DNA from: the human T2T-CHM13v2.0 reference genome, Homo sapiens
Assembly (NCBI RefSeq): GCF_009914755.1
Contig: NC_060930.1
Length of the DNA stretch: 64,000 nucleotides
Strand: one strand, 5' to 3'
The notes beneath the pieces were generated by a model. The model was not told the DNA's origin. It saw only the letters and a list, made by a program, of their open reading frames with translations, and searched no databases. Shown here one piece after another: positions 6,060 through 50,000 of the stretch (within the stretch, counting starts at the first letter, position 1; each line of letters opens with the position of its first letter). The position numbers were made by a program, and so were the translations under genes.

Positions 6060-7177
6060 CTCTGTTCTGTTCCATTGATCTATATCTCTGTTTCGGTACC
6101 AGTACCATGCTGTTTTGGTTACTGTAGCCTTGTAGTATAGTTTGAAGTCAGGTAGAGTGAGGCCTCCAGCTTTGTTCTTTTGGCTTAGGATTGACTTGGC
6201 AATGCAGGCTCTTTTTTGGTTCCATATGAACTTGAAAGTAGTTTTTTCCAATTCTGTGAAGAAAGTCGTTGGTAGCTTGATGGGGATGGCATTGAATCTG
6301 TAAATTACCTTGGGCAGTATGGTCATTTTCACGATATTGATTCTTCCTACCCATGAGCATGGAATGTTCTTCCATTTGTTTGTATCCTCTTTTATTTCCT
6401 TGAGCAGTGGTTTGTAGTTCTCCTTGAAGAGGTCCTTCACATCCCTTGTAAGTTGGATTCCCAGGTATTTTATTCCCTTTGAAGCAATTGTGAATGGGAG
6501 TTCACTCATGATTTGGCTCTCTGTTTGTCTGTTACTGGTGTATAAGAATGCTTGTGATTTTTGTACACTGATTTTGTATCCTGAGACTTTGCTGAAGTTG
6601 CTTATCAGTTTAAGGAGATTTTGGGCTGAGACGATGGGGTTTTCTAGATATACAATCATGTCATCTGCAAACAGGGACAATTTGACTTCCTCTTTTCCTA
6701 ATTGAATACCCTTTATTTCCTTCTCCTGCCTAATTGCCCTGGCCAGAACTTCCAACACTATGTTGAATAGGAGCGGTGAGAGAGGGCATCCCTGTCTTGT
6801 GCCAGTTTTCAAAGGGAATGCTTCCAGTTTTTGCCCATTCAGTATGATATTGGCTGTGGGTTTGTCATAGATAGCTCTTATTATTTTGAAATACATCCCG
6901 TCAATACCTAAAATATTCTCAATCATAGGTGGGAATTGAACAATGCGAACACATGGACACAGGAAGCGGAACATCACACTCTGGGGACTGTTGTGGGGTG
7001 GGGGGAGGGGGGAGGGATAGCATTGGGAGATATACCTAATGCTAGATGATGAGTTAGTGGGTGCAGCGCACCAGCATGGCACATGTATACATATGTAACT
7101 AACCTGCACATTGTGCACATGTACCCTAAAACTTAAAGTATAATAATAAATAAATAAATAAAAAGAAAAAAAGAAAA
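6060..7177 (+). mobile_element. L1PA3-like insertion with 5' inversion and large internal deletion
   Basis: Perfect 18-bp TSD AAGAAATAGTACAGAGAG at 6042-6059 and 7178-7195. 6060-6911 is inverted ORF2. 6913-7177 is the sense 3' end with a patterned A-tail. Confidence 0.96.
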
Positions 7178-8517
7178 AAGAAATAGTACAGAGAGATCCC
7201 AAGTATCCTTTATCCTGTTTCCCCCAGTGGTAACATCTTGCAAACTATAGCATAATAGTATAACCAGGATATTGCCTTTGAAACAGTCAAGATATAGAAT
7301 GTTTCCATCAACACAATGATCCCTCATGTTGCCCTTTTGTAACCATATCTACTTCCCTCCCATCCTCATCCCCCTCTTAACCCTCAGCAACCACTAATCC
7401 GTTTTCCATCTCTAAAATTTTATCATTTTAAGAAGGTTATATAAATGGAATTATATAGTAAGTAACCGTTTATAATTGGCTTTTCCCACTCAGCATAACT
7501 CTCTGAAATTCATCCAAGTTGTTGCATGGATCAACATTGATTGCTAAATAGTATTCCATGGGATGGATGTACCAAAGTTTGTTTAACCATCTTGTTGAAG
7601 CATATCTGGGTTGTTTCTGGTGTTTGTCTATTACAAACAAACATTCATATACAGATAAGTGTTCATTTCTCTCAGAAAAATGCCAATAAGGACAATGTCA
7701 GGTCACATGGTAGTTGCATATTTAGTTTTTTAAGAAACAGCCAATATGTTTTCCAGAGTACCCGTACCACTTTACATTTCCACCAGCAATGTATAAGACA
7801 TCCAGTTCCTCCATGTTCTCACCAACATTTGGTATTATCACTACTTCTTATTTTAGCAAAGCTGACAGGTGTATAGTCATATCATATACTCATTAACATT
7901 TTCTCAATACCTATGGTTGTTGAATACCTTATTATGTGCTTATTTGCCATCTATATATACTCCCGGGAAATATACCTTCATGACTTTTGCCCATTTTCTA
8001 AATGAAATGCTTGCTTTTTTGCTGTTGAATCCTGAGAGCTCCTTATCTAGTCTAGATACTAGTCCTTTGTCAGATAATTTCAAAACATGTTCTCCTACAC
8101 TGTAACTTGTCTTTTCATCCTCTTCACAATCTTTCACAGCACAAAAGTCTAATTTTTATAAAGGCCAGTTTGTCGACTTTTCCTTTTTTAAGCCATGTCA
8201 AATCTAAGAACTCTTTGGCCAGTCTTAGATCCTGCATATTTATTTTTTTCAACGTTGTATAGTTTTACATTTTACATTGAAGTCCATGATTCATTTTGAG
8301 TTATTTATTGTATAAGTAACTTAATTCATGTGACTTCTTTTTTCTTTGGCTTATGGATGTTGAATTGCTTCAGTACTCCAGTACCATTTATTGAAAAGAC
8401 TATCTTTTCTTCATGAAATTGCTTTAGCATCTTTGTCAGAAATCATTTGCATAATCATAATAATAGTAGTAGTAAAATGTCAGTTGAGCATATTTGTGTG
8501 GGTTTATTTCTAAGTTC

Positions 8518-47000: not shown

Positions 47001-50000
47001 TAGCGGTCTATCAATTTTGTTGATCTTTTCAAAAAAACACCTCCTGGATTCGCTGATTTTTTGAAGGGTTTTTTGTGTCTCTATTTCCTTCAGTTCTGCT
47101 CTGATTTTAGTTATTTCTTGCCTTCTGCTAGCTTTTGAATGTGTTTGCTCTTGCTTTTCTAGTTCTTTTAATTGTGATGTTAGGGTGTCCATCTTGGATC
47201 TTTCCTGCTTTCTCTTGTGGGCATTTAGTGCTATAAATTTCCCTCCACACACTGCTTTGAATGTGTCCCAGAGATTCTGGTATGTTGTATCTTTGTTCTC
47301 ATTGGTTTCAAAGAACATCTTTATTTCTGCCTTCATTTCGTTATGTACCCAGTAGTCATTCAGGAGCAGGTTGTTCAGTTTCCATGTAGTTGAGCAGTTT
47401 TGAGTGAGTTTCTTAATCCTGAGTTCTAGTTTGATTGCACTGTGATCTGAGAGACAGTTTGTTATAATTTCTGTTCTTTTACATTTCCTGGGGAGTGCTT
47501 TACTCCCAACTATGTGGTCAATTTTCAAATAAGTTCAGTGTGGTGCTGAGAAGAATGTAAATTCTGTTGATTTCGGGTGGAGAGTTCTCTAGATGTCTAT
47601 TAGGTCTGCTTGGTGCAGAGCTGAGTTCAATTCCTGGATATCCTTGCTAACTTTCTGTCTCATTGATCTGTCTAATGTTGACAGTGGGGTGTTAAACTCT
47701 CCCATTATTATTGTGTGGGAGTCTAAGTCTCTTTGCATGTCTCTAAGGACTTGCTTTATGAATCTGGGTGCGCCTGTATTGGGTGCATATATATTTAGGA
47801 TAGTTAGCTCTTCTTGTTGAATTGATCCCTTTACCATTATGTAATGGCCTTCTTTGTCTCTTTTGATCTTTGTTGGTTTAAAGTCTGTTTTATCAGAGAC
47901 TAGGATTGCAACTCCTGCCTTTTTTTGTTTTCCATTTGCTTGACAGATCTTCCTCCATCCCTTTATTTTGAGCCTATGTGTGTCTCTGCACGTGAGATGG
48001 GTTTCCTGAATACAGCACACTGATGGATCTTGACTCTTTATCCAATTTGCCAGTCTGCATCTTTTAATTGCAGCATTTAGCCCATTTACATTTAAGGTTA
48101 ATATTGTTATGTGTGAATTTGATCCTGTCATTATGATGTTAGCTGGTTATTTTGCTCATTAGTTGATGCAGTTTCTTCCTAGCCTTGATGGTCTACAATT
48201 TGGCATGTTTTTTCAGTGTCTGGTACCGGTTGTTCCTTTCCATGTTTAGTGCTTCCTTCAGGAGCTCTTTTAGGGCAGGCCTGGTGGTGACAAAATCTCT
48301 CAGCATTTGCTTGTCTGTAAAGGATTTTATTTCTTCTTCACTTATGAAGCTTAGTTTGGCTGGATATGAAATTCTGGGTGAAAATTCTTTTCTTTAAGAA
48401 TGTTGAATATTGGCCCCCACTCTCTTCTGGCTTGTAGAGTTTCTGCTGAGAGACCAGCAGTTAGTCTGATGGGCTTCCCTTTGTGGGCAACCCAACCTTT
48501 CTCTCTGGCTGCCCTTAACATTTTTTCCTTCATTTCATCTTTAGTGAATCTGACAATTACGTGTCTTGGAGTTGCTCTTCTCGAGGAGTATCTTTGTGGC
48601 ATTCTCTGTATTTCCTGAATTTGAATGTTGGCCTGCCTTGCTAGATCGGGGAAGTTCTCCTGGATAATATCCTGCAGCGTGTTTTCCAAGTTGGTTCCAT
48701 TCTCCCCGTCACTTTCAGTTACACCAATCAGATGTAGATTTGGTCTTTTCACGTAGTCCCATATTTCTTGGAGGTTTTGTTTCTTTTTATTCTTTTTTTT
48801 CTAAACTTTTCTTCTCACTTCATTTCATTAATTTGATGTTCCATCACTGATACCCTTTCTTCCAGTTGATCATATCGGCTACTGAGGCTTGTGCATTCAT
48901 CACATAGTTCTTTTGCCTTGGTTTTCAGCTCCACCAGGTCCTTTAAGGACTTCTCTACATTGGTTATTCTAGTTAGCCATTAGTCTAATTTTTTTTCAAG
49001 GTTTTTAACTTCTTTGCCATGGGTTCGAACTTCCTTCTTTAGCTCAGAGTAGTTTGATTGTCTGAAGCCTTCTTCCCTCAATTCATCAAAGTCATGCTCC
49101 ATCCAGCTTTGTTCCATTGCTGGTGAGGAACTGTGTTCCTTTGGAGGAGGAGAGGTGTCCTGAATTTTAGAGTTTCCAGTTTTTCTGCTGTTTTTGCCCC
49201 ATCTTTGTGGTTTTATCTACCTTTGGTCTTTGATGATGTTGACGTACAGATGGGGTTTTGGTGTGGATGTCCTTCCTCTTTGACAGTTTTGCTTCTAACG
49301 GTCAGGACCCTCAGCTTCAGGTCTGTTGAAGTTTGCTGGAGGTCCACTCCAGACCCTGTTTGCCTGGTTATCAGCAGCGGAGGCCGCAGAACAGCAGATA
49401 TTGGTGAGCAGCAAATGTTGCTGCCTGATTATTCCCCTGGAAGTTTTGTCTCAGTGGAGTACCCGGCTGTGTGAGGTGTCAGTTTGCCCCTACTTGGGGG
49501 TGCCTCCCAGTTAGGGTACTTGGGGGTCAGGGATCCACTTGAGGAGACAGTCTGTCCATTCTCAGATCTCCAGCTATGTGCTGGGAAAACCACTACTCTC
49601 TTCAAAGCTGTCAGACAGGGACATTTAAGTCTGCAGAGGATTCTGCTGCCTTTTATTTGGCTATGGCTGCCCCCAGAGGTGGAGTCTACAGAGGCAGGCA
49701 GGCCTCTTTGAGCTGCGGTGCGCTCCACCCAGTTTGAGCCTCCAGGCTTCTTTGTTTACTTATTCAAGCCTCGGCAATGGTGGGTACCCCTCCCCCAGCC
49801 TCGCTGCCACCGTGCAGTTTGATCTCAGACTGCTGTGCTAGCAATGAGCAAGGCTCCATGGGTGTAGGACCCTCTGAGCTATGCACAGGATATAATCTCC
49901 TGGTGTGCAGTTTGCTAAGACCATTGGAAAAGCGCAGTATTAGGGTGGGAGTGGCCCAATTTTCCAGGTGCCATCTGTCACCCCTTTCTTTGACTAGGAA

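What the first reader, a model, noticed from the sequence alone, without database searches (positions are those of the whole stretch)
6230..48345. L1 copies of different ages share the same apparently derived substitutions
Seen on the + strand, between the L1PA3/2 (20-26 kb) and the L1PA4/5 (44-50 kb): ttgttGgag (20791, 44970; ELQQ), ccattGtaac (20610, 44789; VTMA), taatGagatc (20924, 45103), gtgtcCatCttgg (23011-23030, 47181-47200; KMDT), KISES, and atttctTcttcac (~24165, ~48333). The variant gaacttGaaag (TTFKF) occurs in three copies (6234, 21427, 45602). Element 1 carries the canonical state at each of these ORF2 sites, as I recall the consensus. The shared sites are scattered among retained subfamily differences, and several are non-CpG transversions to G. 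Inference: short-tract non-allelic gene conversion among L1s, local or genome-wide, possibly GC-biased, overwriting copies after insertion.
Basis: partly seen in the sequence, partly recalled or inferred. Interest (0 to 1): 0.7.

Follow-up and report, generated by a model that had tools for sequence, protein, structure and literature searches.

The report
Neighbouring L1 copies swap short patches
Separately inserted LINE-1 copies that lie near each other on a human chromosome share the same rare single-letter changes, in patches up to about a megabase wide, likely because they copied short stretches from one another after insertion, which would mean that old L1 copies do not mutate independently as is usually assumed.

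Summary
Confirmed, and larger than the window. The full-length L1s at 19.9-25.9 kb and 44.1-50.2 kb are 91.9% identical, have separate target-site duplications and are rejected as sister copies (p-AU 5e-7). They still share eight rare substitutions; one three-site haplotype occurs only in these two among 100 of 108 listed carriers.

Genome-wide, the three T>G alleles with a denominator sit in about 2-8% of matching copies (background 0.4%). Carriers are scattered across the L1PA lineage, the alleles are unlinked, and carriers cluster: 55 of 100 carriers of one allele have another within 200 kb (about 3% expected; control alleles 0 of 33). Patches are allele-specific (56 of 61 pairs under 100 kb share the allele; 37% expected). 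This argues against one source lineage and against a regional mutation process.

Best explanation: short-tract, distance-limited non-allelic gene conversion among L1PA copies (0.8). GC bias is unsettled, and why a few alleles became so common is unexplained. The process is described for Alu and segmental duplications; ten searches showed no paper on such L1 patches by title or abstract start. Ape orthologs and reads could not be checked.

The parts
19918..25945 (-). E20: full-length young L1PA copy, ORF2 broken; carries all eight shared alleles
   Evidence: self-BLAST; ORF 21226-23976 has endonuclease and RT Pfam domains; target-site duplication of 11 bases at 19908 and 25948
44099..50227 (-). 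E44: full-length older L1PA copy, 91.9% identical to E20; carries the same eight alleles
   Evidence: own target-site duplication of 10 bases at 44060 and 50228; deeper in the tree than E20
6055..6917 (-). E6: internal L1 ORF2 fragment carrying 21427G at window 6234
1..3344 (.). E1: young truncated L1 with an inversion at about 1121; common base at all seven covered sites (internal negative control)
20610..20610 (+). C>G shared with E44 (44789); G also in copies at chr6:87.07, 87.23 and 87.26 Mb
20791..20791 (+). T>G shared with E44 (44970); about 8% of matching copies genome-wide; also in L092, L053, L054 on chr6
20924..20924 (+). T>G shared with E44 (45103); about 4.5% of matching copies; also in L093
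21427..21427 (+). T>G shared with E44 (45602) and E6 (6234); 158 copies, clustered
22883..22883 (+). T>C shared with E44 ('KISES'); weakest site, may be a parallel transition
23020..23026 (+). haplotype 23020C-23023C-23026G shared with E44 (23020 = 47190, 23023 = 47193), seen only in these two among 100 of 108 listed
24167..24167 (+). C>T shared with E44 (48335); dispersed genome-wide except three copies within 200 kb here
55798..61131 (-). E55: old L1 (81% identical to E20), used as outgroup; carries none of the shared alleles

Best explanation
Separately inserted L1PA copies that lie near one another share rare substitutions in allele-specific patches, likely because short stretches were copied from one copy into another after insertion (non-allelic gene conversion). 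Shown: E20 and E44 are independent insertions of different age, keep their lineage differences, and share isolated rare alleles with each other and with copies 0.04-0.8 Mb away; the same kind of patch is seen on each of chr1-6 and chr8 in the listings. Inferred: a break or nick in one L1 is sometimes repaired from a nearby non-allelic L1, in either orientation, over a tract of at most about 100-150 bases. Repeated over millions of years, an allele hops from copy to copy and forms a patch. Also inferred, and weaker: some alleles, mostly transversions to G or C, win such exchanges more often than they lose, which would explain why a few reached 2-8% of matching copies.
For: Independent insertions: separate target-site duplications; E20+E44 as a clade rejected, p-AU 5e-7; six copies of the chr1:59 Mb patch as a clade rejected, p-AU 2e-9 (22 rows picked from the 93 loci and the window copies). 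Carriers of 21427G and 20924G run from the oldest to the youngest rungs of the tree (92 rows, 3 left out as too short). Unlinked: of 30 loci with 21427G, 1 has 20791G, 3 have 20924G, 0 have 20610G. Clustering: 55 of the 100 listed 21427G carriers have another within 200 kb, against 2.6% under uniform placement and 2.6-7.3% from real L1 spacing; control alleles 0 of 33 over the same span against 24.5% for G thinned to 33. Allele-specific patches: same allele in 56 of 61 pairs under 100 kb, 71 of 82 at 100-300 kb, 80 of 120 at 0.3-1 Mb, 1972 of 5541 beyond 10 Mb, against 0.37 by label permutation. Unselected alleles behave alike: 21130 A>C in 6 copies at chr1:59.2-60.3 Mb (8 of 87 overall), 20878 C>G as three separate neighbour pairs. 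Rare derived transversions shared by pairs: 0.73/kb under 100 kb, 0.35 at 100-300 kb, 0.18 at 0.3-1 Mb, 0.09 at 1-5 Mb, against 0.09-0.10 permuted (0, 0, 354 and 2120 of 5000). Both orientations share. Passenger alleles point to direct local copying: the three-site haplotype and 24167T (3 of 48 carriers within 200 kb of another, all three here).
Against: The first, unfiltered permutation test of neighbour sharing was weak: 145 of 3000 under 100 kb, 265 of 3000 without the pair L019/L020, 464 of 3000 at 100-300 kb. All 93 loci were picked as carriers of a variant, so they are not a random sample. Pairs are not independent. Element 1, in the same window, carries none of the shared alleles and shares only 1-2 rare alleles with E20 or E44. 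The long identical runs around three shared sites (169, 105, 95 bases) lie in stretches conserved in all copies, so they do not measure tracts. Neutral conversion alone does not explain why 20791G and 20924G reach about 19 and 11 times the background for T>G (0.40%). No ortholog or population data show an allele replacing another at a fixed locus. A long-read family study reports no significant rise of de novo mutation in LINEs (PMC13102968, figure legend passage).
Confidence: 0.8

Rival explanations
1. The alleles mark one or more source sub-lineages and were inherited vertically, with local clustering from sources inserting near themselves or from duplication.
For: High copy numbers (158-673) are what a productive source leaves. 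One near pair, L063/L064, shares 27 rare alleles and looks like a segmental duplicate; L019/L020 shares 10. A source origin for the first seeds of the commonest alleles is not excluded.
Against: Carriers span the whole lineage ladder; clades rejected; alleles unlinked; 23020C clusters on both the A and the G background six bases away; E20 and E44 differ at 58 lineage-polymorphic sites in 3 kb and have their own target-site duplications.
Confidence: 0.06
2. Independent mutation at context hotspots, with the rate varying by chromosomal region.
For: Several alleles are T>G after TT or AT. Some long-range correlation remains at 3-10 Mb (306 of 618 pairs). A LINE-linked germline mutation process is recalled from the final abstract of Seplyarskiy 2021, but the held texts showed no such passage.
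Against: Same four-base contexts elsewhere in these copies give 0.34-1.09% T>G, against about 2-8% at the tested sites. A regional process would put different alleles in the same regions, but patches are allele-specific. It cannot give the three-site haplotype in two neighbours only, nor patches of T>A, G>T and C>T alleles.
Confidence: 0.05
3. Conversion templated by L1 cDNA or RNA from a locally transcribed copy, rather than DNA-DNA recombination between chromosomal copies.
For: Described for yeast Ty and Tf2 (PMC6598467, part 2 read). It would also give short, unlinked tracts in both orientations.
Against: Diffusible cDNA gives no obvious reason for decay over 0.1-1 Mb; a truncated fragment (E6) and old broken copies take part. 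Donors could not be identified, so this is not tested directly.
Confidence: 0.07
4. Assembly or polishing artefact.
For: No reads or second assembly could be examined.
Against: By inference: mis-mapped reads go to the most similar copy, not the nearest; E20 and E44 differ by 8%; patches of 0.1-1 Mb exceed usual read lengths and include both strands.
Confidence: 0.02

Closest known systems
Non-allelic gene conversion among neighbouring Alu elements (Aleshin and Zhi 2010, not held; cited through PMC6598467 parts 1-2 of 4 and passages of PMC8230782)
   Same: Neighbouring retrotransposon copies share non-diagnostic mutations; rate falls with distance.
   Different: Reported range about 10 kb; here strong to 300 kb, fading near 1 Mb, in L1PA, with the same allele forming patches on several chromosomes.
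PRDM9-linked Alu-Alu conversion in ancestral gorillas (bioRxiv 10.1101/241356, parts 1-2 of 4 read)
   Same: Interlocus conversion between diverged copies, decay with distance, tracts of about 118 bases.
   Different: Alu, gorilla lineage, one motif, pairs tested only within 100 kb, no GC bias seen. Here many L1 positions are involved and no motif was identified.
Interlocus gene conversion in human segmental duplications (PMC10172114, abstract and passages)
   Same: Excess of C-to-G and G-to-C transversions attributed to GC-biased conversion; here such changes are 20 of 68 neighbour-shared alleles against 216 of 1796 singletons.
   Different: Concerns large duplications over 90% identity and calls events up to tens of kb; here dispersed L1 copies and tracts of at most about 100-150 bases.
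De novo conversion candidates in LINEs (PMC13102968, passages)
   Same: 44% of candidate conversion-derived de novo mutations lie in LINEs.
   Different: Per-generation candidates only, which the authors say are often not true conversions; no allele patches in the passages seen.

Membership tests
Non-allelic (interlocus) gene conversion | Derived alleles shared between paralogs against their phylogeny | tested here: met
   5 of 37 rare derived alleles of E20 in 3 kb are shared with E44; clade rejected
Non-allelic (interlocus) gene conversion | Both loci keep their own flanks (no duplication or crossover) | tested here: met
   similarity ends at the L1 borders; separate target-site duplications
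Non-allelic (interlocus) gene conversion | Frequency falls with genomic distance | tested here: met
   the unfiltered test was weak
Non-allelic (interlocus) gene conversion | Bounded tracts | tested here: inconclusive
   upper bounds of about 95-155 bases from retained lineage differences at four sites, two of them set by CpG sites; identical runs are not informative
Non-allelic (interlocus) gene conversion | One-way replacement at a fixed locus, shown with orthologs or polymorphism | not testable with these tools
   no ape genomes or other human haplotypes available
GC-biased gene conversion | Excess of weak-to-strong over strong-to-weak transfers | tested here: inconclusive
   transversions 27:8 to G/C (p 0.0009) but all W>S against S>W p 0.88; T>C at 21427 (59 copies) is not raised like T>G (158)
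PRDM9-driven repeat conversion | A motif enriched in recipients and depleted in one lineage | not testable with these tools
   needs polarised events across apes
L1 source sub-lineage | Carriers form a clade | tested here: not met
L1 source sub-lineage | Diagnostic alleles are linked | tested here: not met
   4 same-copy co-occurrences among 161 listed places
LINE-1 | ORF2 with endonuclease and reverse transcriptase, poly(A) tail, target-site duplication | tested here: met
Named L1PA subfamilies (PA2-PA5) | Match to subfamily diagnostic positions | not testable with these tools

The most novel reading that the evidence does not exclude
The thousands of L1PA copies form one spatially structured gene pool in which certain alleles are driven: biased conversion carries them from copy to copy along chromosomes, so that a few have reached 2-8% of copies across all subfamily ages. 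The allele patches would then be a fossil map of which L1 copies touched each other in the ape germline, and dead copies could pass coding changes into younger ones.
Probability: 0.35. Interest if true: 0.85.

Novelty: new variant of a known kind. Interest (0 to 1): 0.7.

Why it matters
Dating of L1 copies, subfamily definitions and mutation-rate estimates from L1 remnants assume that copies diverge independently after insertion; local exchange breaks that assumption and creates homoplasy. Recurrent variants inside L1 in population data may be conversions rather than mutations or mapping errors. Allele patches give a way to measure, from one assembly, the range and bias of ectopic repair in the germline, and to test whether template choice follows chromatin contact. 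It also bears on how often nearby L1s pair, the step that precedes L1-mediated rearrangements.

Tried and rejected
Long identical runs as tract evidence: three shared sites lie in the three longest E20/E44 identical runs (p 0.009), but other copies differ from them there by only about 4-6 bases on average, the shared alleles included, so this was dropped. Unfiltered permutation test of neighbour sharing: weak, heavy-tailed null; reported beside the filtered tests. L064 was dropped as an apparent segmental duplicate of L063. A common sequence context or an L1 endonuclease-site explanation for the frequent alleles was considered from the sequence; same-context sites are not raised to the same level and no motif was found. 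The recalled L1PA mutation process of Seplyarskiy 2021 was not found in either held text (term searches only). Aleshin and Zhi 2010 and Harpak 2017 are not held. No genome-wide alignment of all L1PA copies was possible; conclusions rest on exact-match counts (lower bounds, biased to intact copies), the first 100 listed places per search, and 93 fetched loci. No canonical counts were obtained for 20610, 23020 or 24167. No supplementary files were opened; those of the bioRxiv preprint 10.1101/241356 (motif table) could bear on whether an L1 motif was already noted.
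Full report
What is in the window. Self-comparison shows two full-length L1s on the minus strand, E20 (19918-25945) and E44 (44099-50227), 91.9% identical. There is also a young truncated copy with an inversion (E1, 1-3344), an internal fragment (E6, 6055-6917) and an old copy (E55, 81% identical to E20). E20 and E44 each have their own target-site duplication. 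E20 and E44 share 20610G, 20791G, 20924G, 21427G, 22883C, 23020C, 23023C and 24167T; E6 also has 21427G; E1 has the common base at the seven sites it covers and E55 has none of the shared alleles. In the 3 kb with background data, 5 of E20's 37 and 5 of E44's 76 rare derived alleles are shared, and all four shared transversions are to G.

How common the alleles are. Exact-pattern searches of the genome (lower bounds) gave the following. Site 21427: G 158, T 7149, C or A 66 (59 C and 7 A by my count of the listing). Site 20791: non-T 673 (95 G, 2 C, 3 A in the first 100), T 7609. Site 20924: non-T 591 (83 G, 10 C, 7 A in the first 100), T 10,379. Site 20610: non-C 183 (58 G, 36 T, 6 A in the first 100). 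23020C: 108. Site 24167: non-C 66 (48 T, 10 G, 8 A). Background T>G over 1123 T sites in 89 fetched copies is 0.40%, and 0.34-1.09% in the same four-base contexts. So three alleles are about 5, 11 and 19 times background, while 24167T and 23023C (6 copies without 23020C) are few and dispersed.

Not a source lineage. The 30 fetched 21427G carriers range from 91 to 97% identity to E20 and rarely carry the other alleles (1, 3 and 0 of 30). On a tree with the tested sites and CpG sites masked, carriers are spread from the oldest to the youngest rungs (92 rows, L070, L085 and E6 left out). Holding E20 and E44 together is rejected (p-AU 5e-7), as is holding six members of the chr1:59 Mb patch together (2e-9) (22 chosen rows). 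E20 and E44 keep 58 lineage-polymorphic differences in 3 kb; these bound four shared sites to intervals of about 95-155 bases.

The alleles form patches. Of the 100 listed 21427G carriers (of 158), 55 have another within 200 kb. Uniform placement gives 2.6% (maximum 12% in 2000 runs), and real L1 spacing gives 2.6%, or 7.3% at triple density. Control alleles at the same site give 0 of 33 over the same span, against 24.5% for G thinned to that number; over all chromosomes the control has 6 of 66, as three pairs that each share one allele. Pooling five alleles on chr1 and chr2:1-118 Mb (161 places), pairs carry the same allele in 56 of 61 cases under 100 kb, 71 of 82 at 100-300 kb, 80 of 120 at 0.3-1 Mb, 87 of 184 at 1-3 Mb, 306 of 618 at 3-10 Mb and 1972 of 5541 beyond, against 0.37 expected. 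A regional mutation process would mix alleles. Around the window, L093 (0.6 Mb away, picked for 20610G) also has 20924G and 23020C; L092 (picked for 21427G) also has 20791G; L091 (picked for 21427G) has none of the others. The three-site haplotype is confined to E20 and E44 among 100 of 108 listed, and the only 24167T carriers within 200 kb of each other are three copies here.

Alleles that were not selected. Neighbouring loci share rare non-CpG alleles at 1.1/kb under 100 kb against 0.26/kb between chromosomes. The first permutation test was weak (145 of 3000; 265 of 3000 without one pair). After filters chosen afterwards, derived transversions gave 0.73, 0.35, 0.18 and 0.09/kb with distance against 0.09-0.10 permuted (0, 0, 354, 2120 of 5000), and the 82 younger copies without allele filters gave 0 of 5000 under 100 kb. 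L064 was dropped as a probable segmental duplicate. New patches appear, such as 21130 A>C in six copies at chr1:59.2-60.3 Mb. Sharing occurs between copies in the same (0.44/kb, 34 pairs) and opposite (0.75/kb, 14 pairs) orientation.

Mechanism. Shown: independent insertions, sharing against phylogeny, unlinked alleles, distance decay, allele-specific patches. Inferred: repair of a break in one L1 from a nearby copy over a short tract, repeated so that alleles hop along the chromosome. Bias is unsettled: neighbour-shared transversions go to G/C 27:8 against 503:534 in singletons (p 0.0009), and C/G exchanges are 20 of 68 against 216 of 1796, but W>S against S>W does not differ (p 0.88), and T>C at 21427 is not raised like T>G. 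From general knowledge, not tested: the G:A, T:C and C:C mismatches that these transversions form are poorly recognised by mismatch repair, which might let such tracts through; PRDM9 binding inside L1 is another candidate. Why a few alleles reached 2-8% is the open point.

Against. E1 hardly takes part. Identical runs do not measure tracts. The loci were ascertained as carriers. No orthologs, haplotypes or reads were available, so replacement at a fixed locus is not shown.

Comparison with print. Conversion among neighbouring Alus within about 10 kb is described (PMC6598467, parts 1-2 of 4; PMC8230782, passages), as is a PRDM9-linked burst among gorilla Alus with tracts of about 118 bases and no GC bias (10.1101/241356, parts 1-2 of 4). 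Segmental duplications show excess C/G transversions (PMC10172114, passages), and LINEs hold 44% of de novo conversion candidates (PMC13102968, passages). A 2026 pangenome study of L1 mentions conversion once and screens for recombinants (PMC13192797, passages). Ten full-text searches listed no paper whose title or abstract start describes allele-specific patches among L1PA copies; most subscription journals are not searched and only the top 30 or fewer hits of each were seen, so prior description is possible.

Verdict. Real, genome-wide, most likely local non-allelic gene conversion among L1PA copies: a new variant of a known kind, with an unexplained excess of a few alleles. Interest 0.7.

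Noticed in passing
window 26406-36269, - strand: Degraded gammaretrovirus-like provirus: Pfam pieces of gag (weak), protease, RT, RNase H and integrase in separate frames, between two LTR-like repeats 83% identical. LTR12/HERV9-like from recall, not tested.
   Followed up: partly
window 18369-19208 against 26406-27246: A further LTR-like repeat in opposite orientation is 91% identical to the 26.4 kb repeat, closer than the two repeats flanking the provirus are to each other (83%); a later insertion or local conversion among LTRs.
   Followed up: no
window 1-3344: Young L1 with an inversion at about 1121, the pattern expected from twin priming.
   Followed up: no
L063, L064 (chr1:46.76 and 46.96 Mb): Share 27 rare alleles at 97.5% identity, probably a segmental duplicate; they are two of five copies at chr1:45.7-47.0 Mb that carry T>A at site 20924, and the other three do not group with them on the tree.
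   Followed up: partly
L019, L020 (chr3:42.26 and 42.30 Mb): Share 10 rare alleles and group on the tree: a local duplication or unusually heavy exchange.
   Followed up: no
chr15:95.03-95.20 Mb; chr10:32.6-32.9 Mb; chr3:39.99-40.17 Mb: Patches of 23020C with five, four and four copies; the chr3 patch spans both states of the lineage site six bases away.
   Followed up: no
chr2, chr7 against chr4, chr6, chr8: 21427G is very uneven between chromosomes: 2 and 2 copies against 20, 21 and at least 21.
   Followed up: no
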